Shown one piece after another: positions 4,507-20,262 of a stretch of 24,000 nt of DNA (within the stretch, counting starts at the first letter, position 1; each line of letters opens with the position of its first letter). The DNA is from Candidatus Nanoarchaeia archaeon (GTDB lineage Archaea; Nanobdellota; Nanobdellia; SCGC-AAA011-G17; DATDVL01). The notes under the pieces were generated by a model. That model saw nothing but the letters and a program-made list of their open reading frames with translations, searched no databases and was not told the DNA's origin. Where the stretch lies: contig DATDVL010000060.1 of the NCBI GenBank assembly GCA_035290025.1, positions 1-24,000 of the forward strand, given 5' to 3'. Made by a program: the position numbers and the translations under genes.

Positions 4507-5001
4507 TTAGTAAAGGAGGAAGAGGATGCCGGTGCTGAAGTAGAAGTAGTGGATAACAATACCAATAATGATACCTATAACTGTTAGAGTAAGATTGTTT
4601 TTCCAGGTGTTGTTGATGCTTGATTCTGCAAGGTTATTTAGATAATAAAGGACAGGTAAGGGTAAATAGCTGGGAAGTATGCCTATGCATATGCCGTGAA
4701 TCAGTGCTGGTTGCAGGAAATACAAGCTGAAAGTCATAATAATAAATAAGAAGATGCTGATAAAAATAAGCCAGGGCATTTTCGTGTTAATGCTCATATA
4801 GCCTATGATAAGTAATGGTGAGATTATGCCTAGAAGGTTTACCCATGTTTCTATCCATCGTCTTCCTTGCTGTACTTCTTTGAGAGTGTACTTTTTTATG
4901 GTTTTTCCTACGAAGTAGCTGATGATGCCGAGGATGATAATGGCTAGGTAAGTCATGGTATGAGTATTTAAGAATTGTAAGTAGGTGGTGAGGAGTGTCA
5001 T
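4507..5001 (-). CDS. Hypothetical polytopic membrane protein (164 aa)
   Basis: It has about five hydrophobic segments. Its start overlaps the alaX stop by 4 nt, indicating an operon. Confidence 0.6.
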   Translation of the reverse strand: MTLLTTYLQFLNTHTMTYLAIIILGIISYFVGKTIKKYTLKEVQQGRRWIETWVNLLGIISPLLIIGYMSINTKMPWLIFISIFLFIIMTFSLYFLQPALIHGICIGILPSYLPLPVLYYLNNLAESSINNTWKNNLTLTVIGIIIGIVIHYFYFSTGILFLLY

Positions 5002-6265: not shown

Positions 6266-7525
6266 ATGAGTTGGGTTAAGAGTACGTTTGAGAAGGTTCC
6301 TCAAGGGGAGAGAGTGGCTCTTGCTGAGAGGGCTTTGGATTTGTATACACAGATGCCTACGCCTTATTATGCAATTCCTAGTGGTATAGTTGTTCCTGAC
6401 GCTATTGATCGTTGGCCTTCCTCAGAAGTATTAGGCGAACGATGGTTGCAAGAAGATGAAATATTCAAGGATATAACAGATGTGTGTAGTGGTCTTCCTC
6501 CTGACTGGACGGCTTTGCAGGAAAGGGTTAAAAATAATAGGAGGCACATGCAGGTTTTAGCTGCTAGAAGTTCCTCTCGTCGTATGCGTCTCTCGTTGCA
6601 TAAGCTGCCTCCTTTTTTTGATGATTTTGATGGGAAAGTAAAAAAGTGGTATAATCTGCCAGAGTGTGTAAACGGTGCAGAGTATGTCGTTACAAAAGAA
6701 CATTTGGGTGAAGGTGGTTTCGGCACAGTGTACAAAGTACAAGCAGATGATGGTAGGGTGTATGCTTTGAAATTACTGCATCCTCGTCACGTTCTAACAG
6801 GGCATCAGCAAGATACGCATCATGATGCTGGTGATGTAATAAGAAAAGGATTGGTCCAACGTCAAGAATTATTCAGAAATGATTGGTTTGCTCGTCTGGA
6901 GTTTATAACGTGGAATAGGCATGATAGTTTCAGAGTAGCAGTCATGAAAGAGTTCGTTCCTGGTAAAACCGTTTATCAGGTATTGCGAAGTTTTGATGGT
7001 CCTGATAGTTTTACGCAAAGAATGGCTGCTGCTTATCGCATAGTTTTGCCCTATGCTCATTTTTTGCAGTGGATGCATCATCAGGGTTTGTTGTTTGTTG
7101 AGAATCGTTGGGATAATGTTATGAAGCATGGTGATACTATAAAAGTTATTGATTATGATTTTGTGACACCTATTGCTGAAATGGGTAATGCAGAGCATGA
7201 TTTTGTTCGATGTGTTTCTTCTCGCTCTTTTGCTTCACGACAACAAAGGCATGATACATTGCAACGCACGTTATTAAGTGATGTGGAGTGTTTTGCTTTA
7301 ATGCTTGATCAATGGTTTGTTGGTTATCCTTGGATCAGCGGTAAGGATTATGGAAATATGTTACGACATATGGATCAAGCAGCAGAAAATAAACGAGCCT
7401 ATCCAAGAGAGCGTATGCATGCTTTGCCGAAGCCGATAAGGCAAGTCGTGCATGATCTTCTTCGTTACCCGCAAGATGAATCGTTGACTATTGATGATGT
7501 GGTCAGTGCATTGGAGATGTTGTAA
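6266..7525 (+). CDS. Hanks-type protein kinase-like protein, paralog 1 (N-terminal unknown domain plus kinase-like domain)
   Basis: Motifs present: Gly-loop LGEGGFGTVYKV, VAIK-like VYALKL, catalytic-loop region FVENRWDNVM, KVIDYDF in place of DFG, and activation-segment SRSFASRQQ. Confidence 0.7.
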   Translation: MSWVKSTFEKVPQGERVALAERALDLYTQMPTPYYAIPSGIVVPDAIDRWPSSEVLGERWLQEDEIFKDITDVCSGLPPDWTALQERVKNNRRHMQVLAARSSSRRMRLSLHKLPPFFDDFDGKVKKWYNLPECVNGAEYVVTKEHLGEGGFGTVYKVQADDGRVYALKLLHPRHVLTGHQQDTHHDAGDVIRKGLVQRQELFRNDWFARLEFITWNRHDSFRVAVMKEFVPGKTVYQVLRSFDGPDSFTQRMAAAYRIVLPYAHFLQWMHHQGLLFVENRWDNVMKHGDTIKVIDYDFVTPIAEMGNAEHDFVRCVSSRSFASRQQRHDTLQRTLLSDVECFALMLDQWFVGYPWISGKDYGNMLRHMDQAAENKRAYPRERMHALPKPIRQVVHDLLRYPQDESLTIDDVVSALEML

Positions 7526-7527
7526 AC

Positions 7528-8811
7528 ATGCAGTATATTATCGATTGTCTTGAAGCAATGCCTACAGGTCAGCGTGTTGCTGAAGCGGAAAGTTTGTTTC
7601 ATGCATTTGCTGATGAGAAAGATTGGGAAAGTTCTTTTCCGTATGGTTTCTTGAGAATGGTTTCTGTTTTTAACATGCCAAGTAGGGACTATTGGGAACG
7701 TTTCGTTACAAGTGAAGAATCATTTTTTGGAAAATTACAAGCGTTGTGTGGTGGTTCTTTGCCGCAGGTGTGGTCTGATCATTATCAGCGTTGTTTAAGG
7801 AATAGAGAACATATGCTGGCATTACTAGAGAAGGTGCGAACGCGGGAAAGAACCCCTATGATACACGAAATTCCTCCGTTTATTGATAATTTTGAAGCTA
7901 AAGTAATAGACTGTTATGGTTTGTTCCACGATATCAACGGGTTGCCGATAAGAATTACAGAAGATCGTTTAGGGAGAGGTGGTTATTGCCATGTCTACAG
8001 AGCAAGCATAGGTGATGAAAAAGTAGCGTTGAAGTTGTCTATTCCTAGTCAATTAAAAACTTCATGGGCCTTAGAAGTAAATAACTTCCCGTTAGTATAT
8101 AGATCTATTAGGAAGAATTTGCAGGATCATAGTGGTTTGTTCCAACAGTCACCTTTTGCACGATTGTATCAGACAGTTGGTGGTAAGTATGATATGTATG
8201 CAATATTCATGGAACTAGTTGAGGGAACGGATATGTATACCTTAGTTTCAGAAAATGATAATAGTAACCTAGATGATAAGGTTGCCAAAACAGCTTTTTT
8301 AGTATATGCACAGATGTTATCAACATTGCATAACAAGAGTTTCGTGTTTGGTGATAATAAATTATCAGCAGTTATGATAAGAAATGAAGGAACTTGTTCG
8401 GTAGGTGATAGAACTATTATTCCTGAAGATGTAAGAGTTATTGATTATGACTTTGCTATGCCTCTAGAAGTAATGAACGCAGAGGAAAATAAGCATTTGT
8501 TGCGTATTGGGACCCCACAGTATAGTTCTCGAGAGCAGCGTTTGGCACATTTAACGAGGACGACGATGAGTGATTTGGAGGGTTTTGCTTTGATGTTGGA
8601 TCATTGGTATACAGGTTCTTTATGGAAAGAAGTTTTCAGGGATAATTTTCGTGCTGAAGAAGCTGATAGCATTAATAAGAGAGAATACCCTACCAATCGT
8701 CTCGCTTGTATTCCCGCTCCTCTACAACCTTTGATAAGGGGTGTTCTTGAATATCCGCAAGATGCGAAAATAACAAGTGGTGATTTTGTAACAGAACTGG
8801 AAAGGGTATAA
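7528..8811 (+). CDS. Hanks-type protein kinase-like protein, paralog 2
   Basis: It starts 2 nt after the paralog-1 stop and is collinear with it throughout. Motifs: LGRGGYCHVYRA, VALKLS, FVFGDNKLSAVM, RVIDYDF and GTPQYSSREQ (GTPxYxAPE-like). Confidence 0.7.
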   Translation: MQYIIDCLEAMPTGQRVAEAESLFHAFADEKDWESSFPYGFLRMVSVFNMPSRDYWERFVTSEESFFGKLQALCGGSLPQVWSDHYQRCLRNREHMLALLEKVRTRERTPMIHEIPPFIDNFEAKVIDCYGLFHDINGLPIRITEDRLGRGGYCHVYRASIGDEKVALKLSIPSQLKTSWALEVNNFPLVYRSIRKNLQDHSGLFQQSPFARLYQTVGGKYDMYAIFMELVEGTDMYTLVSENDNSNLDDKVAKTAFLVYAQMLSTLHNKSFVFGDNKLSAVMIRNEGTCSVGDRTIIPEDVRVIDYDFAMPLEVMNAEENKHLLRIGTPQYSSREQRLAHLTRTTMSDLEGFALMLDHWYTGSLWKEVFRDNFRAEEADSINKREYPTNRLACIPAPLQPLIRGVLEYPQDAKITSGDFVTELERV

Positions 8812-8859
8812 TACGCCACGGATGGGATTTGAACCCATACGTCCTTGCGGACACAGGAT

Positions 8860-8870
8860 GTTTACCTAGT
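8860..8870 (-). other. tRNA-Ser intron 2 (11 nt, canonical 37/38)
   Basis: Central helix UUGC/GUAA (one G.U), bulges UAA and ACA, 4-nt loop. The outer helix is the anticodon stem. Confidence 0.65.
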
Positions 8871-8878
8871 TAGCAATC

Positions 8879-8898
8879 TTACGCCATTTTTTAGATGT
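8879..8898 (-). other. tRNA-Ser intron 1 (20 nt, position 29/30, non-canonical)
   Basis: BHB drawn by hand: central helix GCGC/GCGU, 3-nt bulges AGA and AAG, inner helix CAU/AUG. Cutting after bulge nt 2 joins CAG|GA. Confidence 0.65.
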
Positions 8899-8929
8899 CT
8901 GCGCGCTACCAGGTTATGCGACCGTGGCT

Positions 8930-9538
8930 CTAATTTTTAAAAATCAAGAGGTATTTATTTAAATGTTTCGTATTAGAAGAACCGACTAATTTCATCCATT
9001 TTTTAATCATTTTAACACCATTTACACAAATTCTGTAAGTTTGGGTTCTCCTATCAACCCATTGATGAAAACGTAAGTCAAAAGTTGTGAGTAACAAAGA
9101 GACATCATTAATAAGTTTTAGTGAGGAACTGCCGATCTCAATTCGAGGATAATCAACTTTGTCAAACCGTAAACACCCATCAGTATCAAATAAACCACGT
9201 AGAAAATATTTAGAACTTACTGATGATTGTAGAATAACTTCAGGAATCCAAATAATATGACTCTTTTTACCAATAGGCATCTCGTTTTCTAGTAAAAATG
9301 ATGTTAGTCTTTTATCACAGGTCTGAACCCCAATACAACCATTTTTACCTCCGCTTCGATATTTCAAGATAAAGTCTCTTTTAAAAATTTTCTTTAGTAA
9401 CGGCAAAACGTGTAAGTGATAATAACCATATTCTTTTAGATCACCTCGAAGTTCCCAAACAAGTGTGCTATTTACTCTGTATAGAGTCCCATCTCCTACA
9501 TGCATCCCTAATAATTCAGCCTCAAACTTAGATACCAT
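8930..9538 (-). CDS. Free-standing double-motif LAGLIDADG homing endonuclease, paralog 1
   Basis: Motifs LLGMHVGDG and LRGLFDTDG both retain the catalytic Asp. The ORF is open to 9640, but ATG 9538 (MVSKFEAELLG) has a TATA-like ttatatta 24 nt upstream, and the longer form would overlap the rtcA start. GC was about 27-32% in two 60-nt hand counts. Confidence 0.8.
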   Translation of the reverse strand: MVSKFEAELLGMHVGDGTLYRVNSTLVWELRGDLKEYGYYHLHVLPLLKKIFKRDFILKYRSGGKNGCIGVQTCDKRLTSFLLENEMPIGKKSHIIWIPEVILQSSVSSKYFLRGLFDTDGCLRFDKVDYPRIEIGSSSLKLINDVSLLLTTFDLRFHQWVDRRTQTYRICVNGVKMIKKWMKLVGSSNTKHLNKYLLIFKN

Positions 9539-9608
9539 AATGGGTAGAAAGAGAAATTTCTTAATATAATCTTCGGAAGAAATATCGGAAAAATTCCGGA
9601 TAAAATGG

Positions 9609-9616
9609 TTTATAAA
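9609..9616 (+). promoter_or_regulatory. TATA box for rtcA
   Basis: tttataaa ends 23 nt before ATG 9639. Confidence 0.5.
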
Positions 9617-9638
9617 GATAATCCTTCTTAGAGTATGC

Positions 9639-10661
9639 ATGATTACAATTGATGGTACTAATGGTGGTGGTCAGGTGTTGCGTACTGCTTTATCGCTGTC
9701 TGCTATTACACAGCAGCCTTTTTTGCTGCAGAATATTCGTGGTGCTCGTCCGAAGCCAGGTATGGGTGCTCAACATGTGATGGCAGTGAAGGCAGCGAGT
9801 GATATCTGTCATGCTTCTGCGGAGGGTGCTAAGCGAGATAGTATGTCTTTGCGATTTATGCCGGGTAAGATTAAGGGTGGGTCGTTTTCTTGGGATATTG
9901 GTACTGCTGGTTCTACAACGTTGATTTTGCAGACGGTGCTCCCCATATTATTCTATGCTGATGGTCCTTCTAAAATAACCATCAGGGGTGGTACAGATAC
10001 AGAGCATGCGTTGCCGTCGTTGGATGCTCGTGATGTTTTTCTTGATGTGGTATGTCGTATGAATCTAGACGTTGATATGTCTATTGATAGTTTTGGTTTT
10101 TTTCCTAAAGGCCAGGGTCAGATTACTGCTACTATTGTTCCTAATAAAAGATTTTCTGGTGTGCATATATCTAATCGTGGTCTTCCTGAGCGTTTGCAGG
10201 TTACTGCTGTGGTGAGTAAGGATTTGCAGGGAAAGAAGGTTGCTGAGCGTATGGTGCAGGCGTTTATGGAGAAAGTAGTTTGGGTAAATAGTAAAGAAGT
10301 TAAGGAAGATTATGTTACGACTGCTGACACAGGTGGTTTTTTGCATGCACACACGCATTTTACGAATACAGTTTTAGGTGCAACAGTCTTGGCGGAGAAG
10401 AAAAAGTCTGCTGAGCATATTGGTTATGAGGTTGCTGCGTTGTTGAATCAAGAATTAGCGAGTGCTGCAACAGTTGATGGTTATACTGCTGATCAGTTGA
10501 TGGTATATTTTGCTTTGGCAGGTGATGGTAGTTGTAAGGTTCGTGAAATTACTGATCATATGCGTTCAAATGCTGCTGTTATTGAACAATTTTTGCCTGT
10601 CAAGTTCACTTTTGAGAATAATGAATTAAAAGTAAATACTATTAAAAGTGAAAGGGGTTAA
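9639..10661 (+). CDS. rtcA: RNA 3'-terminal phosphate cyclase
   Basis: The N-terminal signature is GGGQVLRTALSLSAITQQPF..NIRGARPKPGMGAQH, and the 340-aa length fits. Confidence 0.88.
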   Translation: MITIDGTNGGGQVLRTALSLSAITQQPFLLQNIRGARPKPGMGAQHVMAVKAASDICHASAEGAKRDSMSLRFMPGKIKGGSFSWDIGTAGSTTLILQTVLPILFYADGPSKITIRGGTDTEHALPSLDARDVFLDVVCRMNLDVDMSIDSFGFFPKGQGQITATIVPNKRFSGVHISNRGLPERLQVTAVVSKDLQGKKVAERMVQAFMEKVVWVNSKEVKEDYVTTADTGGFLHAHTHFTNTVLGATVLAEKKKSAEHIGYEVAALLNQELASAATVDGYTADQLMVYFALAGDGSCKVREITDHMRSNAAVIEQFLPVKFTFENNELKVNTIKSERG

Positions 10662-11310
10662 ACTTAGTAGTATAATCATAAGCGTCCACGCCTTCTGCTC
10701 GTTTTAGGAACTTTACAATTCGGTAAGTAAGTGGTGTTGCTATAATTTCATAAACAACCTTGAGGATATATCCAGAAAGGATTGCAGGTAATAACAAGTT
10801 ATTGGGAAAAACGCCGTAAAATGCTAATATTACAAAAACAGTACTGTCAATTCCTTCTCCCACGATGGTTGAGCCAATAGTTCTCATCCAAAGATGTCTT
10901 CCTTGAGTAAGAAGTTTCATTTTTGCGAGCACAAAGGAGTTTGAAAATTCTCCTAACCAGTAAGCGATGAGTGATGCTAGGGCTATACGAGGTACTAATC
11001 CTAGAATAGTATTATATGCTGTTTGATTCAGCCAGCCCATGGCGGGTGGTAATATACCAACAAGCCAGTAGACAAGTGACATAAGTAATAAAACAAAAAA
11101 TCCTGTCCAAATAATCTTTCTTGATTGTTTATAGCCATATACTTCAGTAAGAACATCTCCAAAAATGTAGGTTAAGGGAAAGACGATAATACCTCCAGAA
11201 ACAATGAATGGACCAATACTGATAAGTTTTGTTGCAACAGTGTTTGATAGCATGAGTAAGGCAACAAATAATGATGAAATAAAGGTGTAATATCTATAGG
11301 ATGACGACAT
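10642..11310 (-). CDS. yhhQ: VUT/DUF165 (YhhQ-like) queuosine/archaeosine-precursor transporter
   Basis: It carries the FPLTYIFGDVLTEVYGYKQSRKIIW motif and multiple TM segments, 222 aa. It overlaps the rtcA 3' end convergently by 20 nt. Confidence 0.8.
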   Translation of the reverse strand: MSSSYRYYTFISSLFVALLMLSNTVATKLISIGPFIVSGGIIVFPLTYIFGDVLTEVYGYKQSRKIIWTGFFVLLLMSLVYWLVGILPPAMGWLNQTAYNTILGLVPRIALASLIAYWLGEFSNSFVLAKMKLLTQGRHLWMRTIGSTIVGEGIDSTVFVILAFYGVFPNNLLLPAILSGYILKVVYEIIATPLTYRIVKFLKRAEGVDAYDYTTKFNPFHF

Positions 11311-11620: not shown

Positions 11621-11723
11621 AAAGTATAACACCTCCAAAATGTGTTGGTTTTCTTAAGGAAAATTATATTAAAAAGCTTCTGGAGTACTCCGAGGGGGTA
11701 GTTTTTTGCCGATTCCATAAGGC

Positions 11724-11731
11724 TTTTAAAG
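11724..11731 (+). promoter_or_regulatory. TATA box for tRNAi-Met
   Basis: ttttaaag ends 22 nt before tRNA position 1 (11753). Confidence 0.45.
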
Positions 11732-11774
11732 AGTCTGGGGTACATTCATTGCAGCGAGGTAGAACAGCCAGGAG

Positions 11775-11792
11775 ACTTGTAAAAAGCCTGAA
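11775..11792 (+). other. tRNAi-Met intron A (18 nt, D-loop)
   Basis: BHB: outer helix AGC/GUU, bulge AAU, central helix CAGG/CCUG, bulge AGA, inner helix CUU/AAG. Boundaries are good to about 1 nt. Confidence 0.6.
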
Positions 11793-11800
11793 TGTTCGTC

Positions 11801-11823
11801 TCTGTCGTCAACGATGGCGAAAG
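11801..11823 (+). other. tRNAi-Met intron B (23 nt, position 28/29)
   Basis: BHB: central helix UUCG/CGAA, bulges UCU and AGG, and a 6-bp inner hairpin with UCAA loop. It joins UC|GGG. Confidence 0.65.
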
Positions 11824-11827
11824 GGGC

Positions 11828-12643
11828 TCATAGCTGTTGTGAGGCACCCGAATAATAGTCCTGCAAAGGATTCTTCGGGATGGTCGGAGGTTCAAATCCT
11901 TCCCTCGCTATCACTTTTAAGTAGTACTTATTTATCTTTTCTAAATGTTTCGGGCTTTGAAAGTTTAACGTTTCGCACCAATGGTTTAAATTTTCGAAAC
12001 CGGACATTTCTAAACGACTAATAATAGTATAACATTTCTTATTTCGTTTGTCCTTTACCCGATAGTTATAACGTGTAGCCACATTAAACCCAGCATTACG
12101 TAAATAATTAGTAACTTGGTTAATAAGGTAATCTTTTTTCGATGATAATGAAATAACAGGATAATAAGGATAATCCCTGTAACGTTTTTTAAAAGAGATA
12201 CATCCATCAGTGTCGAATAATCCTTGGATAAAATAAGGTATAAGGTCCGGTCTCTCTAAAATTACTAAAGGTATCTGAAGATAGTCATACTTTTTCCCTA
12301 TAGGTAATCCAATAACTTGAGTAAGATAAAGAAATAAGCTTTTTGAATATATTCTAAAACCATAAATAGTCCCTTTTTTATTCTTTTTAAAGAACTGCAT
12401 AGCTGGGCTAATTCCAAAAAGATTTTTGAGAAGTGATCTAATAATCAGGTCATAATAAGATTTCTCATCAATAGGATGCCCAGCACAATGAATAGAGTAT
12501 TCATGTTTATTTTTCCTGTAATGAATGCAGCCATCACCTGTTAAAACACCAATTAAGTAAGCAAGTTCGGGGGTTATAGTTAAAGGAAGAACTAAACCTT
12601 TAGAACGATCAAGTTTTGAAAGAGGAATGTTAAATTGAGTCAT
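11828..12643 (-). CDS. Free-standing double-motif LAGLIDADG homing endonuclease, paralog 2, with antisense read-through into tRNAi-Met
   Basis: Motifs LIGVLTGDG and IQGLFDTDG. It shares PIGKK, GLFDTDGC and a KHLxK..KY C-terminus with paralog 1. GC was about 33% in one 60-nt hand count. The last 27 codons are antisense to the tRNA gene. Confidence 0.8.
   Translation of the reverse strand: MTQFNIPLSKLDRSKGLVLPLTITPELAYLIGVLTGDGCIHYRKNKHEYSIHCAGHPIDEKSYYDLIIRSLLKNLFGISPAMQFFKKNKKGTIYGFRIYSKSLFLYLTQVIGLPIGKKYDYLQIPLVILERPDLIPYFIQGLFDTDGCISFKKRYRDYPYYPVISLSSKKDYLINQVTNYLRNAGFNVATRYNYRVKDKRNKKCYTIISRLEMSGFENLNHWCETLNFQSPKHLEKINKYYLKVIAREGFEPPTIPKNPLQDYYSGASQQL
11833..11845 (+). other. tRNAi-Met intron C (13 nt, canonical 37/38)
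   Basis: BHB: central helix CUCA/UGAG, bulges UAG and GCA. The outer helix is GGG/CCC of the anticodon stem. Confidence 0.7.
11853..11881 (+). other. tRNAi-Met intron D (29 nt, position 44/45)
   Basis: BHB: central helix CCCG/CGGG, bulges AAU and AUG, inner hairpin capped by a GCAA tetraloop. It yields the variable loop AGGUC. The register can slide by 1-2 nt. Confidence 0.55.
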
Positions 12644-12666
12644 ATCAAGTCAAAGAATAATTTTAA

Positions 12667-12674
12667 TTTATATA
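12667..12674 (-). promoter_or_regulatory. TATA box for LAGLIDADG paralog 2
   Basis: tttatata lies 24 nt from ATG 12643. Confidence 0.45.
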
Positions 12675-14036: not shown

Positions 14037-15194
14037 TTATTTATATATAACCATTTCTGCTTGTTGTACTGCTTCTTCTACCAGTTCTGCTATTTTCGTT
14101 TTCTTTTCTAGTTGGTTGATCTTGTCGGTTGTTGCTTTGATGTCGGGGTGTTCTGCTATCATGTAACTGCAGCAGTCTCCGTAGGGTCGTATGCTTATCT
14201 CATAAGTCCCATATTTTTTTGCTTCTTTGATGATGTCGTCTTTGTTGTAGGCTATGAGTGGTCTGATGATGGGTAGTTTCGTGTTTGCTTGTATTGCTGT
14301 TAGGTTTTCTATGGTTTGGCTTGCTACTTGTCCTAGATTTTCTCCGGTGATGAGTGCTTGTGCTTGTTCTTTTGCCGCTATTTTTTCTGCTAGTTGGAGC
14401 ATGGCTCTTCGGTAGAGGAGCATGCGTTGTTCTGCGGGTATGGTTATAATAATATTGTCTTGTATCTTGTCGAAGGGTAGGATGTAGAGTTTTGTTGTTT
14501 GTTGGTAATGGTTTAATTGTTCTGCTAAGTCTTTTATTTTTTGTAGTGTTGCTTCGTTGTTGACGGTTTTGTTATAAACGTGTGCTAGGATGACGGTTGT
14601 TCCTCGTTTCATGAGTTGTGCTGCTGCTACGGGGCTGTCGATGCCTCCGGAGAGTAGGCATATCATGGTTCCTGAGCTTCCGGTGGGTAGTCCTGCTACA
14701 CTTTCGTATTTTTTTGTGTAGATGTAGGTTTGTTGTTGGGTTATTTCTATGGTGTAGGCTATTTTTGGGTTGGTGAGGTCTACGGTTGCTGTGGGGTATG
14801 CTTCAAGTAGTGCTTCTCCTAGGAGTTCGTTGACTTCTGTTGATTTATGGCTGAATTGTTTGTTGCTGTTTTTTGTTCTTATGGCGAACGGGTTTTGGTG
14901 TTCTTTCGCTGCGAGTGCAAGTACTTTTTCTTTGATGATGGCTAGGTCATTGGGGCATGTTTCTGTGAGTGCATAGTTGTTGATGCCGGGTATGGTTGCT
15001 AGTTGTTTGAGGATACCTTCGTTGTTAGTATGTTCGTTTAGGTTGATGATGATTCTTCCGTAATCTTTTTGTATTTTTCCTGGTTTGTAGGCTGCTATTT
15101 TTTTTCTTATGTTGTCTACGAGGAGGTTTTCGAAGTAGTTTCTTCGTCCTTTTTTTATGGCTATTTCTCCGTAGTGGATAATGATAGTTTGCAT
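14037..15194 (-). CDS. thiI: tRNA 4-thiouridine synthase ThiI (THUMP plus PP-loop ATPase)
   Basis: It has the PP-loop LLSGGIDSPVAA and an N-terminal ferredoxin-like/THUMP region (IIIHYGEIAIKKGRRNYFE). Length is 385 aa. Confidence 0.88.
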   Translation of the reverse strand: MQTIIIHYGEIAIKKGRRNYFENLLVDNIRKKIAAYKPGKIQKDYGRIIINLNEHTNNEGILKQLATIPGINNYALTETCPNDLAIIKEKVLALAAKEHQNPFAIRTKNSNKQFSHKSTEVNELLGEALLEAYPTATVDLTNPKIAYTIEITQQQTYIYTKKYESVAGLPTGSSGTMICLLSGGIDSPVAAAQLMKRGTTVILAHVYNKTVNNEATLQKIKDLAEQLNHYQQTTKLYILPFDKIQDNIIITIPAEQRMLLYRRAMLQLAEKIAAKEQAQALITGENLGQVASQTIENLTAIQANTKLPIIRPLIAYNKDDIIKEAKKYGTYEISIRPYGDCCSYMIAEHPDIKATTDKINQLEKKTKIAELVEEAVQQAEMVIYK

Positions 15195-15990: not shown

Positions 15991-16650
15991 ATGGTAAAAT
16001 TCATAGCAGGTATTGATGAGGCTGGCCGTGGTCCGCTTATTGGTCCTTTAGTTATTGCGGGTGTTCTTGTTGCTGAGAAAGATGTTCCTAAATTGGTCGC
16101 TCTTGGTGTTAAGGATTCTAAGTTGTTGTCTCCTGCGCAGCGTGAAGGTATGTTTGAAGCAATAAAAGGTATTGTTAAGGATTATAAAATAATTATAGTT
16201 CAGCCGCAGGAAGTTGATGCTGCTGTTGAGTCTGTTGATGGTTTGAACTTAAATTGGTTGGAGGCTCATAAGACTGCCGATATTCTGAATGCGTTGAAGC
16301 CTGACAAGGCGTTTATTGATTGTCCTTCGACAAATATTAAGAAATATACAGAATATCTTAAAGATTTATTAAAAAACAGTATGGAACTCGTTGTCGAGCA
16401 CAAATCTGACTTCTTGCATAAAGAGACAGGTGCTGCCTCAATTTTGGCCAAGGTGACACGTGATCGCGAGATTGAGAAGTTGCAAAAAAAGGTTAAAGAA
16501 CCTTTAGGTAGTGGTTATCCTTCTGACCCTATTACTAAAGAGTTTGTTAAGAAGTATTGGAAGAAATATCCTGATATTTTTCGTCATTCCTGGTCGACGT
16601 ATAAGGTTATTGCTGATCCTGAAAAACAGTCTGGTTTGGATAAGTTTTAA
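15991..16650 (+). CDS. rnhB: Ribonuclease HII
   Basis: It has the GIDEAGRGPLIGPLVIAGV catalytic motif. Length is 219 aa. Confidence 0.92.
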   Translation: MVKFIAGIDEAGRGPLIGPLVIAGVLVAEKDVPKLVALGVKDSKLLSPAQREGMFEAIKGIVKDYKIIIVQPQEVDAAVESVDGLNLNWLEAHKTADILNALKPDKAFIDCPSTNIKKYTEYLKDLLKNSMELVVEHKSDFLHKETGAASILAKVTRDREIEKLQKKVKEPLGSGYPSDPITKEFVKKYWKKYPDIFRHSWSTYKVIADPEKQSGLDKF

Positions 16651-16827: not shown

Positions 16828-19800
16828 ATGACCTATATTACTAAACTGTATCTTCACGGTTTTAAGTCGTTTGCGAAGCCGACGACGTTAGAGTTTGGTA
16901 ATGAGTTCAATTGTTTTATTGGGGCTAATGGTTCGGGTAAAACAAATCTTGCTGATGCTATTGTTTTCGTTTTAGGTTCTTTGTCCCCAAAACTGATGCG
17001 TGCAGAAAAGGCTGCTAATCTTATCTTTAACGGTGGTAAGAAGGGGTCTCCGATGAAAGAAGCCGAGGTTTCCATCTTTTTTGAGAATAGTAAGAAGATT
17101 TTTCCTTTGGAAACATCGGAAGTGAAGATTACTCGTTTGATCAAGCAAAATGGGAATTCTGTATACAAAATTAATGATGAGACGGCTACACGTCAGCAAG
17201 TAATTGAATTGTTAGTGCATGCGTCTGTTGATCCTGATGGTCACAATATTGTTTTGCAGGGTGATATTGTCAAGTTTGCTGAGATGCGTGGTGATGAGCG
17301 TCGTGGTATTATTGAGGATATTGCTGGTATTTCAATGTATGAAGATAAAAAACATAAGGCGTTATTGGAACTATCAAAAGTTGATGCCAAGTTAAATGAG
17401 GCGGAGATTATTCTTACAGAACGTCGCACATATTTGAAGGAACTAAAGAAAGACCGTGATCAGGCTGTGAAATATCGTGAATTGGAGAAAGATATTAAGA
17501 GTAGTAAGGCGACAGTGTTGAATTATCAGTTAGTACAGAAGGAAGGTAAGCGCAAGGAAGTTGATGATCGTATTGCTGAGTATACAAAAGAGATTGAAAA
17601 GATTAATAGTAAGATTGCAGAACTAAAAAGGTTTATTGATGAACAAAAACTTGCTATGCATAATTTGAATAAGGAAATTGAGGAAAAGGGTGAGGTAGAA
17701 GTTGTCAAGTTGCAGAAGGATATTGAAGAATTGAAGACGACTGCTGCTCGTAAGTCTGAACGTCAGAATACGGTGGTTCATGAGATTAGTCGTTTGCATG
17801 AGCGTTTAAAGCAGTTGCAGGTTTCTGTTAAGGATACGGATGCTACTATTGTTGGTTTGGAGAAGTCTAAAAAGGAATTAGAACAGAAAGTTGTTCATTT
17901 GGAAAAGAAAGAATTGTCCTTATCTGATGAGATTAAGTCGTTCCGTGAAGATCATCAAATGGCTGATGCTTCTGAATTGTTGGCTTTGGAGAAGAAGGTG
18001 GAAGTTGCAGAGGGTGAAGTGCAGGAATTAACACAGGAGTATAATCAGTCCTTGCAGAAGAAGTTTTTGTTGGATGCGCAGGTAAAACAGTTGGAAGAGC
18101 AGGTTGCTGAGTTGAGTAAATTGGGGTCTTCTAGTGAAGTGAAAAAGTTGCGTAGTGATTTAAAGTTGATGACAGAGGAGTTGCAGAAGTGTTTGGCTGA
18201 GGATTCTTCTTTGGCTATTCAGTTGAATAAGGCTCGTGTTGCTTTAAATGATGCTAATACAGAGTTGTATAAACTGCAGGCAAAGCAGTCTTCTTTGCGT
18301 GAGTTGGCTGCTGCTGATCTTGCGTTGAAACGTATGTTGGGTTTAAAGCATGAGGGTATTTTTGGTTTGGTGACTGACTTGGGCGAGACTGATCCTCGTT
18401 TTGGTTTGGCTTTAGAGGTTGCTGCTGGTCCTCGTATGAAAGGTTTGATTGTTGATTCTGACAAGACTGCTGCTGATGGTATTAAGATTTTGAAGGAAGA
18501 AAAGTTGGGTACGTGCATTTTCGTTCCGTTGAATACGATGAAAATTGTTCCTAAGGTTAATATGTCAGGGGCAGGTATTGTGGGTAATGCTTTGGACTTA
18601 GTAAAGTTTGATCCTAAGTTTAAGAATGCGTTCTCATATATCTTTGGTTCTACATTGGTTGTTGAGAACGTGGAAACTGCTCGTCGTTTGGGTGTTGGTC
18701 GTGTTCGTATGGTTACTTTAGAAGGTGATTTATTTGAGACTTCGGGTGCTATTGTTGGTGGTCATCGTAAGGTCACGAAGAGTTTCCAGTTTAAAGAGAA
18801 GGACGCTGATGAAAAATTGCAAAAGTTTGAGAAGGATATTGAGCAAAGTCAGAAATTGATTGACCATTTGAGTACGAAACGTTCAGCCTTGGAAGATAAT
18901 ATTATGGGTTTGCGTGAGCGTAAGAGTGATGTTGAGGCTAAATTGATGACGTTGGAGAAGACTGCTTCTTTGGTGGATACGGAAGAATTGGAGCGTACGA
19001 TGAGTAAATTGAAGGATGATACTATCTTCGTGCAGGTAAAGAAGTTAGAAGGAGCATTGAAGGATAAGTCAGAAGTTATTGAAGAGTTACGTAAGCAACG
19101 TGATCGTGCAAAGCAGAATGCGCAAGATTTAAGCAATCCTGAAGTCGTTGCTGCTTTGGAAAAACTTGAGCAGTCTAAGGCTAAGACGCGTGAAGAAATG
19201 GTACAATTACGTACAGAACTGAAAAACATTGATCTACAATTGCATAACATTTATCTTCCAGAAAAGGATAAAGCTTTGCAGATTTTAAAACAGCAAGAAA
19301 AGGAGTTGGAACTATTTTCTCAGGAAAAGGTTGCTTTGGAGAAAGAGTTGAAGGAAAATGTTGCTGGTTTAAAGGAGCGGGAATTGCAAGAAGAAAAGTT
19401 CCAAAAGAATTTCAGGAGTTTGTTTGCCCAGCGTAATAAAATTTCTGAGGAGACAGTAAAGAAAGAGTCTTTAGTAAATAATGAGCAAGGTAAGATTCGT
19501 GAGATTGAAAACAAGTTGAATAATACAAATATTGCTCGTGCAAAGATTGTTGCAGAGTATGAAGCTTTGCAGGTAGAGTTTGAGCCTTTCAAGGGTATTT
19601 CTTTGCGTAAGAACGTTTCTGAAGAAGAATTGAAGTCGGAAATTCGTAAGTTTGAGCATTTGATGCAGCAGATGGGTAATGTTAATTTGCGTGCTTTGGA
19701 GATTTATGAGAATATTGATAAGGAATATCAGGAATTGTTGGAAAAAGCTGAAAAGTTGAAGATGGAAAAAGAAGATGTGTTGAAGATGATGACAGAGATA

Positions 19801-20262
19801 GAGTCTAAAAAGAAGTATATGTTTATGAAGACGTTCCGTGAGATTGCTAAGAATTTTGAGAATATTTTCTTGTCACTTTCTACTAAGGGTGAGGCGTTTT
19901 TGGAGTTGGAGAACAAAGAAGAGCCGTTATCTGCGGGTTTGGATATTAAGATTCATATGGCGGGTTCTAAGTATCTTGATTTACGTTCCATGTCGGGTGG
20001 TGAGAAGACGTTAACTGCTTTGGCGTTGATTTTTGCTATTCAAGAATACCATCCTGCGTCGTTTTACTTGCTGGATGAAGTTGATGCTGCTTTGGATAAG
20101 GGTAATTCCGATTTGTTGTCGAAGTTGATTGCAAAGTATTCTCAACGTGCACAATATATTGTTATTTCTCATAATGATAATGTTATTACTGAGGCTGCTA
20201 GAATTTATGGTGTAACAATGCAGGAGGATAATGTTTCTAAGGTGGTAAGTTTGAAGTTTTAG
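16828..20262 (+). CDS. smc: Chromosome segregation protein SMC
   Basis: It has Walker A GANGSGKTN, two long coiled-coil arms, a central hinge, the signature LSGGEKTLTALALIFAIQ, and Walker B FYLLDEVDAALD. Length is 1144 aa. Confidence 0.93.
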   Translation: MTYITKLYLHGFKSFAKPTTLEFGNEFNCFIGANGSGKTNLADAIVFVLGSLSPKLMRAEKAANLIFNGGKKGSPMKEAEVSIFFENSKKIFPLETSEVKITRLIKQNGNSVYKINDETATRQQVIELLVHASVDPDGHNIVLQGDIVKFAEMRGDERRGIIEDIAGISMYEDKKHKALLELSKVDAKLNEAEIILTERRTYLKELKKDRDQAVKYRELEKDIKSSKATVLNYQLVQKEGKRKEVDDRIAEYTKEIEKINSKIAELKRFIDEQKLAMHNLNKEIEEKGEVEVVKLQKDIEELKTTAARKSERQNTVVHEISRLHERLKQLQVSVKDTDATIVGLEKSKKELEQKVVHLEKKELSLSDEIKSFREDHQMADASELLALEKKVEVAEGEVQELTQEYNQSLQKKFLLDAQVKQLEEQVAELSKLGSSSEVKKLRSDLKLMTEELQKCLAEDSSLAIQLNKARVALNDANTELYKLQAKQSSLRELAAADLALKRMLGLKHEGIFGLVTDLGETDPRFGLALEVAAGPRMKGLIVDSDKTAADGIKILKEEKLGTCIFVPLNTMKIVPKVNMSGAGIVGNALDLVKFDPKFKNAFSYIFGSTLVVENVETARRLGVGRVRMVTLEGDLFETSGAIVGGHRKVTKSFQFKEKDADEKLQKFEKDIEQSQKLIDHLSTKRSALEDNIMGLRERKSDVEAKLMTLEKTASLVDTEELERTMSKLKDDTIFVQVKKLEGALKDKSEVIEELRKQRDRAKQNAQDLSNPEVVAALEKLEQSKAKTREEMVQLRTELKNIDLQLHNIYLPEKDKALQILKQQEKELELFSQEKVALEKELKENVAGLKERELQEEKFQKNFRSLFAQRNKISEETVKKESLVNNEQGKIREIENKLNNTNIARAKIVAEYEALQVEFEPFKGISLRKNVSEEELKSEIRKFEHLMQQMGNVNLRALEIYENIDKEYQELLEKAEKLKMEKEDVLKMMTEIESKKKYMFMKTFREIAKNFENIFLSLSTKGEAFLELENKEEPLSAGLDIKIHMAGSKYLDLRSMSGGEKTLTALALIFAIQEYHPASFYLLDEVDAALDKGNSDLLSKLIAKYSQRAQYIVISHNDNVITEAARIYGVTMQEDNVSKVVSLKF

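What the first reader, a model, noticed from the sequence alone, without database searches (positions are those of the whole stretch)
11753..12674. Second LAGLIDADG paralog abuts the 3' end of tRNAi-Met on the opposite strand and reads antisense through it
The region homologous to the C-terminus of paralog 1 (KHLEKINKYYLKV versus KHLNKYLLIFKN-stop) ends at 11912, which is 2 nt from the tRNA 3' end (11910). With no stop there, the ORF continues antisense through the T-arm, intron D and exon 4. This adds a 27-aa tail (IAREGFEPPTIPKNPLQDYYSGASQQL). It terminates at a TGA that is the complement of anticodon-loop nucleotides 33-35 (11828-11830).

The EGFEPP stretch is the classic signature of translating a T-arm backwards. 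This looks like a cassette inserted flush against a tRNA gene end. Convergent transcription of the endonuclease gene would also produce RNA antisense to the 3' half of the initiator tRNA precursor.
Basis: seen in the sequence. Interest (0 to 1): 0.65.

Follow-up and report, generated by a model that had tools for sequence, protein, structure and literature searches.

The report
Endonuclease gene flush against initiator tRNA
A homing-endonuclease gene sits flush against the end of an intron-riddled initiator tRNA gene in a tiny (DPANN) archaeon; its odd 27-residue tail is only read-through into the tRNA, but the same gene pair recurs in about 40 related genomes and tracks with tRNA introns, hinting at how archaeal tRNA introns spread.

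Summary
ORF 11828-12643 (-) is an I-DmoI-type LAGLIDADG endonuclease. Its conserved domain ends at 11912, 2 nt from the 3' end of a real four-intron tRNAi-Met (11753-11910, +). It then reads 27 codons antisense into the tRNA, to a TGA opposite U33-C34-A35.

The tail is a by-product. In 33 homologous junctions all three reading frames over the tRNA end occur (13/9/11). They give no tail, an 'SGERI' tail or 'GFEPPT' tails.

The junction itself is not a one-off. In 40 loci, all apparently DPANN archaea, this family lies in the 3' flank of tRNAi-Met (37 convergent, 3 inverted). Related genomes have tRNAi-Met directly upstream of RNase HII with no endonuclease gene, so this is a single-gene cassette present or absent at a fixed site.

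An intron between the anticodon stem and the T-loop occurs in 38/40 occupied loci and 3/11 unoccupied ones (Fisher p=1e-5). Paralog 1 likewise abuts an intron-bearing tRNA-Ser(GCT).

Best reading, and an inference: this is a free-standing homing endonuclease that targets the uninterrupted tRNA gene, with bulge-helix-bulge introns protecting the host copy and spreading with it. That would be an archaeal version of phage 'collaborative homing'. Cleavage and transcription are untested.

The parts
11912..12643 (-). LAGLIDADG endonuclease (paralog 2), conserved two-domain part, residues 1-244. Catalytic Asp residues lie in LIGVLTGDG (D37) and IQGLFDTDG (D146).
   Evidence: Pfam LAGLIDADG_3, E 1e-12. 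The family profile matches I-DmoI, I-Tsp061I and PI-PfuI. AF2 model has pLDDT 89 with two alpha-beta-beta-alpha-beta-beta-alpha repeats. Foldseek top hits are PI-PfuI, I-AniI and I-DmoI. Both Asp residues are invariant.
11828..11911 (-). 27-codon read-through tail (I245-L271, 11831-11911) plus the TGA stop (11828-11830). It is antisense to tRNA exon 5, intron D, exon 4, intron C and U33-A37.
   Evidence: Translation. Not aligned in homologs. Low pLDDT. Homologs use all three frames over the tRNA end.
11753..11910 (+). Initiator tRNA-Met gene, a 158-nt precursor. Exons: 11753-11774, 11793-11800, 11824-11832, 11846-11852, 11882-11910 (75 nt when spliced).
   Evidence: Splice-aware alignment to the intronless L019 tRNA. 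The spliced product is called tRNA-Met(CAT). Fold z = -4.6. Rfam gives a partial tRNA hit.
11775..11792 (+). Intron A (18 nt, D-loop, between positions 20a and 21). Central helix CAGG/CCTG.
   Evidence: Bulge-helix-bulge geometry script.
11801..11823 (+). Intron B (23 nt, position 28/29). Central helix TTCG/CGAA.
11833..11845 (+). Intron C (13 nt, canonical position 37/38). Central helix CTCA/TGAG.
11853..11881 (+). Intron D (29 nt, position 44/45, variable loop). Central helix CCCG/CGGG. This is the intron class that tracks with the presence of the endonuclease gene.
   Evidence: Association across loci.
12661..12674 (-). TATA-like box TATATAAATTAAAA, 18-31 nt upstream of the endonuclease ATG. 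Putative promoter of a leaderless mRNA.
   Evidence: Read from the sequence. Inference only.
11723..11731 (+). TATA-like CTTTTAAAG, about 26 nt upstream of the tRNA 5' end. Putative tRNA promoter.
   Evidence: Read from the sequence. Inference only.
11781..11785 (-). First run of five or more T on the endonuclease strand after its conserved domain. It is the antisense of intron A. A transcript ending here would be antisense to tRNA positions 21-73.
   Evidence: Read from the sequence. Inference only.
8930..9640 (-). LAGLIDADG paralog 1 (236 aa). Its TAG stop lies 1 nt from the 5' end of tRNA-Ser(GCT) on the same strand.
   Evidence: LAG1-type homologs in L018, L035 and L130 show the same tandem arrangement.
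8814..8928 (-). tRNA-Ser(GCT) gene with two bulge-helix-bulge introns (8879-8898 and 8860-8870).
   Evidence: Splice-aware alignment to the L007 tRNA-Ser. The spliced 84-nt product is called tRNA-Ser(GCT).
15991..16650 (+). RNase HII, the syntenic anchor. In 22 of 52 related loci it lies divergently upstream of the endonuclease gene. In empty-site loci it directly follows tRNAi-Met.
16828..20262 (+). SMC, second gene of the conserved block.

Best explanation
**What it is.** The ORF encodes a genuine, probably active, monomeric two-domain LAGLIDADG endonuclease of the archaeal I-DmoI type. It belongs to a family found almost entirely in DPANN archaea (Woesearchaeota, Nanoarchaeota, Pacearchaeota, Aenigmatarchaeota, by record title). 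The family's gene occupies one fixed site, the immediate 3' flank of the single initiator tRNA-Met gene. It usually lies between that tRNA and RNase HII, on the opposite strand.

**The tail.** The junction is so tight that the stop codon is often the complement of the tRNA's terminal C-U-A. In this window the frame misses that TAG, so the ORF runs on for 27 meaningless codons into the tRNA. The tail is a by-product with no function of its own.

**How it most likely works.** The gene behaves as a single-gene cassette that is present in some lineages and absent in others. Most likely it is a free-standing homing endonuclease that cuts the uninterrupted tRNAi-Met gene of cassette-free relatives, in or near the variable-loop/T-stem segment (about positions 40-58). 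Repair from a cassette-bearing copy then transfers the endonuclease gene together with the nearby bulge-helix-bulge introns. An intron at 43/44-47/48 or 53/54 (here intron D, at 44/45) interrupts the target in the host's own gene and so protects it. This is the archaeal, protein-spliced-intron counterpart of phage collaborative or trans homing.

**Shown:** domain identity, the junction, frame-dependent tails, presence/absence at a fixed site, and the association with introns.

**Inferred:** nuclease activity, the location of the target, homing, and protection by introns.
For: **Identity.** Pfam LAGLIDADG_3. The family profile hits I-DmoI. The AF2 and Foldseek results show a two-domain LAGLIDADG fold. 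The catalytic acids GDG and DTD are kept in 46 of 46 sequences, with one D-to-E change.

**Tail is a by-product.**
- Homologs stop aligning at about residue 240-244.
- Three frame classes occur, 13/9/11. They give overlaps of 3 nt (TAG = complement of CUA), 19 nt (SGERI*) or at least 26 nt.
- pLDDT collapses after residue 240.

**Fixed site.** 37 convergent loci, 3 inverted ones in the 3' flank, and 2 with the gene on the 5' side.

**Cassette.**
- A conserved block SMC-RNase HII / LAG / tRNAi-Met is present.
- Empty sites have tRNAi-Met followed by RNase HII after 10 to 970 nt, with no LAG remnant even with hmmsearch --max.
- LAG-negative lineages are interspersed with LAG-positive ones in an RNase HII tree, and L123 (empty, intronless) is nearest the window.
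- Only 1 of 10 RNase HII-linked tRNAi-Met loci from metagenomes carries the gene.
- A few copies are decayed: L028 and L041.
- The two LAG genes have GC 0.31-0.32, against 0.39 for the window.

**Intron link.**
- An intron between the anticodon stem and the T-loop is present in 38/40 occupied and 3/11 unoccupied loci, Fisher p = 1e-5. Fully automated calls give 36/40, p = 1e-4.
- At least three different insertion points (about 44/45, 47/48, 53/54) serve in different LAG-positive lineages.
- Introns at the D-arm, 37/38 and 59/60 also occur without LAG.

**Second paralog and intron mobility.**
- Paralog 1 and its relatives always abut an intron-bearing tRNA-Ser(GCT).
- A near-identical T-arm intron sits in two different tRNAs, each next to a LAG gene (L022 and L043).

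**Precedents.** Collaborative and trans homing (PMC2790892, PMC6083498). SegB, which cuts tRNA genes (PMC2330249).
Against: - No activity, target or transcript data exist.
- The family is as conserved as RNase HII (mean pairwise identity 48.5% against 49.2%). Its divergence correlates with that of RNase HII (Mantel r = 0.34, 7 of 5000 permutations). This fits long vertical inheritance under purifying selection, which is unusual for a purely selfish endonuclease gene.
- Two occupied loci lack the 'protective' intron: L019 has none, and L035 has introns only at 29/30 and 37/38. Three unoccupied loci have it (L122, L128, L130).
- The loci are phylogenetically non-independent, so the Fisher p-value overstates the evidence.
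- The RNase HII tree is a single-gene neighbour-joining tree without support values.
- LAG-positive and LAG-negative loci came from different collections (GTDB genomes and JGI/ENA metagenomes).
- The tRNA-His subfamily mostly sits next to intronless tRNA-His genes.
Confidence: 0.55

Rival explanations
1. Domesticated or host-retained LAGLIDADG protein. It would be an old chromosomal gene inherited vertically next to tRNAi-Met, kept for a cellular role such as DNA binding, repair or regulation. It would then have been lost in some lineages. Under this view the introns are an unrelated lineage trait, and the abutment reflects only genome compaction.
For: - Conservation equals that of RNase HII, and divergence is partly correlated with it.
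- Synteny with SMC and RNase HII is conserved.
- The catalytic residues are kept in essentially all copies.
- Only distant relatives occur in viral contigs.
- The window is tightly packed. The kinase ORF ends 2 nt from tRNA-Ser, and the RtcA and Vut_1 ORFs overlap.
Against: - Distribution is patchy. Nine of ten RNase HII-linked tRNAi-Met loci from metagenomes lack the gene, and they are interspersed with carriers.
- The cassette occurs in both orientations and on either side of the tRNA.
- Different subfamilies each sit next to a different tRNA: iMet, Ser, His, Phe and an Ile-like tRNA.
- The association with introns at 43-54 uses several different insertion points.
- The protein has no WhiA-like helix-turn-helix domain and has not lost its catalytic residues.
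Confidence: 0.25
2. Classical free-standing homing endonuclease whose target is the empty junction itself (tRNA 3' end plus downstream spacer). Introns would be passengers carried along in co-conversion tracts, not protective elements.
For: - The junction is flush at the tRNA end in nearly all loci, with the stop codon often using the tRNA's terminal CUA.
- Empty sites exist.
- MobE trans homing is a precedent (PMC2790892).
Against: - The introns nearest the cassette (59/60) are not associated with it. They occur in unoccupied loci L128, L130, L141, L148 and L168.
- The association is specific to positions 43-54.
- The spacer downstream of the tRNA is not conserved between empty sites.
Confidence: 0.12
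3. The overlap is functional. Either the endonuclease mRNA acts as an antisense regulator of the initiator tRNA precursor, or the 27-residue tail is a functional C-terminal extension.
For: - The first T5 run on the endonuclease strand lies beyond the stop codon, inside the antisense of intron A. A transcript could therefore cover tRNA positions 21-73.
- Gene callers report the 271-aa product in six contigs.
Against: - All three frames occur, and tail lengths range from 0 to more than 30 residues.
- The orientation is inverted in L009, L022 and L035, and the gene is upstream of the tRNA in L032 and L036.
- Tail similarity among homologs is fully explained by tRNA sequence.
- The tail has low pLDDT.
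Confidence: 0.05

Closest known systems
I-DmoI and other archaeal intron- or intein-encoded LAGLIDADG endonucleases (I-Tsp061I, PI-PfuI)
   Same: - Monomeric protein with two LAGLIDADG motifs and an acidic residue in each.
- Same fold.
- Best sequence and structure matches.
- The target is presumably a conserved stable-RNA gene.
   Different: - It is not encoded inside an intron or intein. It is free-standing, outside the tRNA, and usually on the opposite strand.
- The neighbouring introns are 13-40 nt and carry no ORF.
Collaborative homing (cyanophage F-CphI with the ORF-less psbA group I intron) and trans homing (T4 MobE with the nrdB intron): PMC6083498, PMC2790892
   Same: - A free-standing endonuclease gene lies beside a gene that contains ORF-less introns.
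- The proposed logic matches: the enzyme cuts the intronless allele, the intron protects the host copy, and both move together by co-conversion.
   Different: - Different enzyme family (LAGLIDADG rather than Endo VII-like or HNH).
- Cellular archaeal chromosome rather than phage.
- The introns are protein-spliced bulge-helix-bulge tRNA introns, not self-splicing group I introns.
- Cleavage is not demonstrated here.
Phage T4 SegB (PMC2330249)
   Same: A free-standing homing endonuclease embedded among tRNA genes. It cleaves a tRNA gene of related genomes and drives inheritance of the tRNA region.
   Different: - GIY-YIG family.
- Phage rather than a cellular chromosome.
- No introns are involved.
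tRNA intron transposition in Thermoproteales (Fujishima et al. 2010, cited in PMC10714607) and the idea that disrupted tRNA genes resist mobile elements (Randau and Soll 2008, cited in PMC4033280)
   Same: - Multiple non-canonical bulge-helix-bulge introns occur in one tRNA.
- Related introns occur in different tRNAs (L022 and L043).
- Gene disruption is seen as protection against a DNA-targeting element.
   Different: - Those studies name no enzyme that moves or selects for the introns. Here a specific endonuclease gene is physically linked.
- Different lineage (DPANN).
- Intron counts of 4-5 exceed the maximum of three reported there.
WhiA (domesticated LAGLIDADG transcription factor)
   Same: - A two-domain LAGLIDADG scaffold on a cellular chromosome.
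- A weak Foldseek match at rank 45.
- One JGI homolog is annotated as WhiA.
   Different: WhiA has lost the catalytic acids and has a C-terminal helix-turn-helix domain. This family keeps both acids and has no such domain.

Membership tests
LAGLIDADG endonuclease (two-motif, monomeric) | Two LAGLIDADG helices, each ending in a conserved acidic residue | tested here: met
   The motifs are LIGVLTGDG (D37) and IQGLFDTDG (D146). They are invariant in alignment A1 and kept in 46 of 46 family members, with one D-to-E change.
LAGLIDADG endonuclease (two-motif, monomeric) | Two alpha-beta-beta-alpha-beta-beta-alpha domains forming a DNA-binding saddle | tested here: met
   The AF2 model has pLDDT 89 and pTM 0.87, and its DSSP pattern shows the two repeats. 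Foldseek hits PI-PfuI, I-AniI, I-DmoI and I-SceI at probability 1.00.
LAGLIDADG endonuclease (two-motif, monomeric) | Profile match above the curated threshold | tested here: met
   PF14528 scores 48.4 bits against a cutoff of 22.5. PF00961 scores 23.6 against 23.1.
LAGLIDADG endonuclease (two-motif, monomeric) | Site-specific double-strand DNA cleavage leaving 4-nt 3' overhangs | not testable with these tools
   Needs a biochemical assay.
Homing endonuclease gene (mobile) | Present or absent at one homologous site among related genomes | tested here: met
   Occupied sites. Empty tRNAi-Met to RNase HII sites in L123, L124, L126, L137, L139 and L141.
Homing endonuclease gene (mobile) | Gene phylogeny incongruent with the host, or evidence of lateral spread | tested here: inconclusive
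   Mantel r = 0.34 with RNase HII. Carriers and non-carriers are interspersed in an unsupported neighbour-joining tree.
Homing endonuclease gene (mobile) | The enzyme cleaves the allele that lacks the element and spares its own | not testable with these tools
   Needs an in vitro or in vivo assay.
Collaborative / trans homing | A free-standing endonuclease gene within co-conversion distance of ORF-less introns in the neighbouring gene | tested here: met
   The gene lies 2 nt from the tRNA. The introns are 13-29 nt and lie 29-136 nt from the junction.
Collaborative / trans homing | The intron co-occurs with the endonuclease gene across genomes | tested here: met
   38/40 against 3/11 for introns at positions 41-54, p = 1e-5. 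The test is not phylogenetically corrected.
Collaborative / trans homing | The cleavage site coincides with, or lies near, the intron insertion site of the intronless allele | not testable with these tools
   Inferred only from which intron positions associate with the gene.
Archaeal bulge-helix-bulge tRNA intron | A 4-bp central helix flanked by two 3-nt bulges that carry the splice sites | tested here: met
   All four window introns fit. Across loci, 55 of 82 introns fit at the exact predicted boundaries, against 24% of random placements.
Archaeal bulge-helix-bulge tRNA intron | Removal yields a canonical cloverleaf | tested here: met
   ARAGORN calls tRNA-Met(CAT) at 75 nt and tRNA-Ser(GCT) at 84 nt on the spliced sequences.
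Archaeal initiator tRNA | CAU anticodon, A1:U72 pair, and three consecutive G:C pairs at the bottom of the anticodon stem | tested here: met
   The spliced sequence is AGCGAGG...TCGGGCTCATAACCCGA...CCTCGCTA.
WhiA-type domesticated LAGLIDADG | Loss of the catalytic acids plus a C-terminal helix-turn-helix domain | tested here: not met
   The acids are kept. No helix-turn-helix domain is found, and the C-terminus is tRNA antisense.

The most novel reading that the evidence does not exclude
Free-standing LAGLIDADG endonucleases parked next to tRNA genes may be the missing engine of bulge-helix-bulge tRNA intron gain in DPANN archaea. Each enzyme subfamily would cut the uninterrupted form of 'its' tRNA gene (iMet, Ser-GCT, His and others). 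Short protein-spliced introns inserted in the target would give immunity and be copied with the endonuclease gene by gene conversion. Intron numbers would ratchet up to four or five per tRNA. This would be the first case of collaborative homing outside phages and the first involving non-self-splicing introns.
Probability: 0.4. Interest if true: 0.85.

Novelty: new variant of a known kind. Interest (0 to 1): 0.72.

Why it matters
How archaeal tRNA genes acquire and multiply their protein-spliced introns, and why some lineages carry so many at odd positions, is unresolved. Intron 'transposition' has been inferred from sequence, but no enzyme has been linked to it.

A conserved physical and statistical link between a nuclease gene and introns in the adjacent tRNA gene gives a concrete, testable mechanism. 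The enzyme can be expressed and assayed on intronless and intron-containing tRNAi-Met DNA.

It would extend collaborative homing from phage group I introns to cellular archaea and to bulge-helix-bulge introns. It would also supply a real example for the old idea that disrupting a tRNA gene protects it from DNA-targeting elements.

There are two practical consequences:
- About a quarter of the database proteins of this family carry spurious tRNA-derived C-terminal tails.
- Standard tRNA finders miss these essential genes. ARAGORN found 1 of the 42 tRNAi-Met genes that lie in the loci; the window tRNA and L133 (never scanned with it) are outside that count.

Tried and rejected
- **Standard tRNA detection.** ARAGORN and Rfam at gathering threshold find no tRNA in the window. 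I replaced them with a splice-aware alignment and a bulge-helix-bulge geometry script.
- **Functional tail.** Rejected because of frame diversity and low pLDDT.
- **Virus or plasmid origin.** Viral contigs hold only relatives at 34% identity or less.
- **Decayed endonuclease remnants in empty sites.** None found with hmmsearch --max on six-frame pieces.
- **Pairing between the T-arm intron loop and the tRNA 3' trailer** (which is the antisense of the ORF's last codons).
  - It is striking by eye in L001, L002, L004, L007, L016, L023 and L044.
  - Across all loci it is only marginal (own versus other trailers, Wilcoxon p = 0.02).
  - It is absent in the window.
  - I kept it as a side note only.
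- **First pairwise-identity script.** It timed out and was redone.
- **Automated intron calls.** They merged two neighbouring introns into one in L027 and L041, and shifted the T-arm intron in L001, L002, L006 and L016. I report both the automated and the hand-corrected counts.
- **L043 tRNA.** My hand parse of this Ile-GAU-like tRNA is off by a base at one intron. Its identity is therefore tentative.
- **Literature.** Six searches found no description of a LAGLIDADG-tRNA gene pair in archaea.
- **Bacterial promoter/terminator scan.** Not used, because it does not apply to archaea.
Full report
**1. The observation**

The ORF at 11828..12643 (-) encodes 271 residues. It matches Pfam LAGLIDADG_3 at E 1e-12, well above the cutoff. 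It is 30% identical to a second copy at 8930..9640 (-). That alignment ends at ...PKHLEKINKYYL against ...TKHLNKYLL.

Reading the codons against one search gives this map:
- V244 is 11912-11914.
- I245 (11909-11911) straddles the last two tRNA bases.
- The tail IAREGFEPPTIPKNPLQDYYSGASQQL occupies 11831-11911.
- The TGA at 11828-11830 is the complement of U33-C34-A35.

One detail was left out: the tail also crosses intron C.

**2. Is the tRNA real?**

ARAGORN and Rfam at gathering threshold see nothing in the window. Rfam at E-value threshold finds only the T-arm and acceptor 3' half.

A splice-aware alignment to an intronless relative (L019), together with a geometry script, shows a 158-nt gene at 11753-11910 (+) with five exons and four introns. 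The introns are:
- 11775-11792, between positions 20a and 21.
- 11801-11823, at 28/29.
- 11833-11845, at 37/38.
- 11853-11881, at 44/45.

Each intron has a perfect 4-bp central helix flanked by 3-nt bulges: CAGG/CCTG, TTCG/CGAA, CTCA/TGAG and CCCG/CGGG.

Three further results support the gene:
- The spliced 75-mer is called tRNA-Met(CAT) with a normal cloverleaf, and it has the archaeal initiator marks A1:U72 and three G:C pairs.
- It is nearly the same as the intronless tRNAi-Met of contig L123.
- The precursor folds far better than shuffles, at z = -4.6.

**3. Where the protein ends**

The family is large. The search returned 400 hits, and the named ones are Woesearchaeota, Nanoarchaeota and Micrarchaeota. 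Typical lengths are 235-250 aa, covering about 87% of the query.

In the alignment, conservation stops at ...SPKHLxKIKK plus a few residues. Beyond that, some homologs end, some add 'SGERI', 'SGEWI' or 'GKRI', and some add 'GEGFEPSTFT', 'GGFEPPTYAQV' or 'GGRFELPTYT'. These are the three reading frames of the reverse complement of a tRNA 3' end, TAGCGGGGnnnGGATTTGAACC.

In 33 junctions measured at DNA level, the frames occur 13, 9 and 11 times. They give:
- overlaps of 3 nt, where the stop TAG is the complement of C-U72-A73;
- overlaps of 19 nt, where the stop TGA lies in the T-loop;
- overlaps of at least 26 nt.

The AlphaFold model is confident (pLDDT above 90) up to about residue 240. It then falls to 68, 54, 45 and 34 over residues 241-271.

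The tail is therefore a frame-dependent by-product, conserved only as far as the tRNA beneath it is conserved. Gene callers nevertheless report the 271-aa product.

**4. The junction is family-wide**

A scan of one genome per species returned 52 loci. All but one carry archaeal record titles, mostly DPANN. L040 is titled Candidatus Omnitrophota bacterium, and five others are titled 'uncultured Methanosarcinales archaeon'.

The count of 37 convergent loci is made up of 35 genome loci, the window, and metagenome locus L133. In all of them the endonuclease ORF is convergent with, and abuts or overlaps, the 3' end of an initiator tRNA-Met.

Other arrangements also occur:
- In L009, L022 and L035 the gene lies in the same 3' flank but is inverted.
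- In L032 and L036 it lies just upstream of the tRNA.

The histidine of the conserved PKH motif (H233 in the window protein) is a median of about 32 nt from the tRNA end. ARAGORN detects only the intronless tRNA, in L019. The others carry one to five introns.

**5. A cassette at a fixed site**

RNase HII (window 15991-16650) and SMC (16828-20262) lie divergently upstream of the endonuclease gene in 22 and 10 of the 52 loci. In the window, four other genes have come between.

Using RNase HII as bait in metagenome contigs gave ten loci where tRNAi-Met is linked to RNase HII. Only one of them (L133) has the endonuclease gene.
- In L123, L124, L126, L128, L130, L137, L139 and L141, nothing LAGLIDADG-like lies between the tRNA and RNase HII. 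The tRNA is co-oriented with RNase HII and 10 to about 1,300 nt upstream of it.
- In the tenth locus, L132, the tRNA lies about 5.8 kb upstream of RNase HII. It also has no family endonuclease gene; the only LAGLIDADG-like hit in that locus lies inside the SMC ORF (section 11).

None of the nine has a remnant detectable with an unfiltered profile search of all six frames.

In a neighbour-joining tree of RNase HII, the empty loci are scattered among the occupied ones, and L123 is nearest the window. This tree is weak evidence, because it rests on one gene and has no support values.

Other observations bear on the same question:
- Close family members are absent from viral contigs.
- Two copies are decayed, L028 and L041.
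- The two window copies are AT-richer than their surroundings, at GC 0.31-0.32 against 0.39.
- On the other side, the family is as conserved as RNase HII (48.5% against 49.2% mean identity). Its divergence correlates with that of RNase HII (Mantel r = 0.34, 7 of 5000 permutations). Much of its history is therefore vertical and under purifying selection.
- The catalytic acids are retained in all 46 sequences examined.

**6. The link with introns**

Across loci, introns cluster at six places: the D-loop, 28/29, 37/38, 43/44 to 47/48, 53/54 and 59/60. An intron between the anticodon stem and the T-loop (positions 41-54) is distributed as follows:
- It is present in 38 of 40 loci with the endonuclease gene in the 3' flank. 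The exceptions are L019, with no introns, and L035, with introns only at 29/30 and 37/38.
- It is present in 3 of 11 loci without the gene (L122, L128, L130).
- Fisher p = 1e-5. With fully automated calls the count is 36/40 and p = 1e-4.

Three points make simple co-inheritance a poor explanation:
- Different carrier lineages use different insertion points (about 44/45, 47/48, 53/54).
- D-arm, 37/38 and 59/60 introns occur freely without the gene (L132, L137, L141, L148, L168).
- L019, the intronless carrier, has an unusual variable loop (AAGTC instead of AGGTC).

The caveat is that the loci are not phylogenetically independent, and the two classes came from different collections.

**7. A second paralog shows the same pattern**

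Paralog 1 (8930-9640, -) ends 1 nt before the 5' end of a tRNA-Ser(GCT) on the same strand (8814-8928). That tRNA has two bulge-helix-bulge introns, and its spliced form is recognised by ARAGORN.

Its closer relatives in L018, L035 and L130 (47-51% identity) have the same tandem, intron-bearing tRNA-Ser(GCT). The tRNA-Ser(GCT) genes in L005, L007 and L014, which have no such neighbour, are intronless. That comparison is biased, because ARAGORN only sees intronless genes.

The only two T-arm motifs in the 24-kb window are these two tRNAs.

More distant subfamilies sit next to other tRNAs:
- tRNA-His in L045 and L047-L050.
- tRNA-Phe in L052.
- An Ile-like tRNA in L043. Its 21-nt T-arm intron matches that of tRNAi-Met in L022 at 19 of 21 positions, with a compensatory change in the splice helix.

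**8. Most likely mechanism**

These steps are shown:
- an intact I-DmoI-like nuclease gene;
- a fixed chromosomal site at a tRNA end;
- presence or absence among relatives;
- co-occurrence with introns in one segment of the tRNA gene.

These steps are inferred. The enzyme cuts the uninterrupted tRNAi-Met gene around positions 40-58. An intron there splits the 20-22-bp site expected for LAGLIDADG enzymes (from general knowledge of the family) and protects the host. Repair of a cut, intronless allele from an occupied one copies the endonuclease gene and the introns together, since they lie within 140 bp of the junction.

This is the logic of collaborative homing (F-CphI with the psbA intron) and trans homing (MobE with the nrdB intron) described in phages (PMC6083498, PMC2790892). 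T4 SegB is a precedent for a free-standing enzyme that cuts tRNA genes (PMC2330249).

**9. Rivals**

- A domesticated, vertically inherited protein. Conservation, synteny and the partial correlation of divergence support it. The patchy distribution, variable orientation, tRNA-specific subfamilies and intron association count against it.
- A classical free-standing element that targets the empty junction, with introns as passengers. The lack of association for the nearest (59/60) introns counts against it.
- A functional antisense RNA or a functional tail. Frame and orientation diversity count against it.

**10. Novelty**

Six literature searches found no report of LAGLIDADG genes paired with tRNA genes in archaea. 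A 2014 review gives three as the maximum number of introns in an archaeal tRNA (PMC4033280). tRNA intron 'transposition' is known from sequence comparison, but no enzyme has been linked to it (PMC10714607).

I class the finding as a new variant of a known kind: collaborative or trans homing, here with a LAGLIDADG enzyme, a cellular archaeal chromosome and protein-spliced introns.

What lies behind it is more interesting.

**11. Things seen along the way**

- In a subclade with a T-arm intron, the intron loop (for example GATGGAAGG) is complementary to the tRNA 3' trailer. That trailer is the antisense of the endonuclease's last codons. The signal is clear by eye in about eight loci, only marginal overall, and absent in the window.
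- L132 has a LAGLIDADG hit inside its SMC ORF, probably an intein.
- The window also holds RtcA, ThiI and a Vut_1/YhhQ-type transporter near the two tRNAs.

Noticed in passing
window 11753-11910 (+); L030 4695-4895 (-): The initiator tRNA-Met gene has four bulge-helix-bulge introns in the window and five in L030. A 2014 review gives three as the known maximum for an archaeal tRNA (PMC4033280). ARAGORN and Rfam at gathering threshold miss these genes.
   Followed up: yes
window 8814-8928 (-) and 8930-9640 (-): A tRNA-Ser(GCT) with two introns (8879-8898 and 8860-8870) lies between LAGLIDADG paralog 1, whose stop is 1 nt from the tRNA 5' end, and a kinase ORF that ends 2 nt from the tRNA 3' end. 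The same LAG1/tRNA-Ser tandem occurs in L018, L035 and L130.
   Followed up: yes
L022 3774-3871 (+) and L043 4784-4905 (+): A 21-nt T-arm (53/54) intron, AGGTAAGAAATTA(C/T)CG(G/A)CGAA, is nearly identical in a tRNAi-Met and in a different, Ile-GAU-like tRNA of another genome. It carries a compensatory change in the splice helix, and both tRNAs sit next to LAGLIDADG genes. This suggests intron movement between tRNA genes.
   Followed up: partly
L001, L002, L004, L006, L007, L016, L023, L044 (tRNAi-Met T-arm intron and 3' trailer): The loop of the T-arm intron hairpin (TGGAAGG, TGGGAAAG and similar) is complementary to the tRNA 3' trailer. That trailer is the antisense of the endonuclease's last codons (W-K-E/G). 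Over all loci the signal is only marginal (p = 0.02), and it is absent in the window.
   Followed up: partly
L045, L047, L049, L050 (about 4677-4749 +); L046/L048; L052 309-380 (-): A distant LAGLIDADG subfamily (32-34% identity) ends about 25 nt upstream of tRNA-His on the same strand, and its ORF reads through that tRNA. The tRNA-His is intronless in four loci and has an intron in L046 and L048. Another member overlaps tRNA-Phe.
   Followed up: partly
L009, L022, L035 (tRNAi-Met upstream of the LAG start); L032, L036 (tRNAi-Met downstream, same strand): The endonuclease cassette also occurs inverted in the tRNA 3' flank, and in two Pacearchaeota-like loci it lies on the 5' side of the tRNA.
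   Followed up: yes
L168 4678-5274 (-) and L122 2653-3270 (+): Weakly related LAGLIDADG-like ORFs lie on the 5' side of tRNAi-Met. In L168 the ORF ends 2 nt from the tRNA 5' end. In L122 it is divergent and 106 nt away.
   Followed up: no
L132 7608-12638 (+): A LAGLIDADG profile hit (E 4e-5) lies inside the long SMC ORF. It is probably an intein.
   Followed up: no
window 8930-9640 and 11912-12643: Both LAGLIDADG genes are AT-richer (GC 0.318 and 0.310) than the window (0.388) and than their neighbours (0.35-0.42).
   Followed up: partly
window 9639-10661, 10642-11310, 14037-15194, 6266-8811: Several RNA-related genes surround the two tRNAs: RNA 3'-phosphate cyclase (RtcA), a Vut_1/YhhQ-type transporter (the two ORFs overlap by 20 nt) and ThiI. 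There are also two tandem protein-kinase paralogs. GC skew is strongly positive across the whole window.
   Followed up: no
protein database entries P0005, P0012, P0017, P0031, P0039 and others: Public protein predictions of this family often carry tRNA-antisense C-terminal tails (GFEPPT, RFELPT, SGERI). This is an annotation artefact that follows from tRNA genes the finders do not detect.
   Followed up: partly
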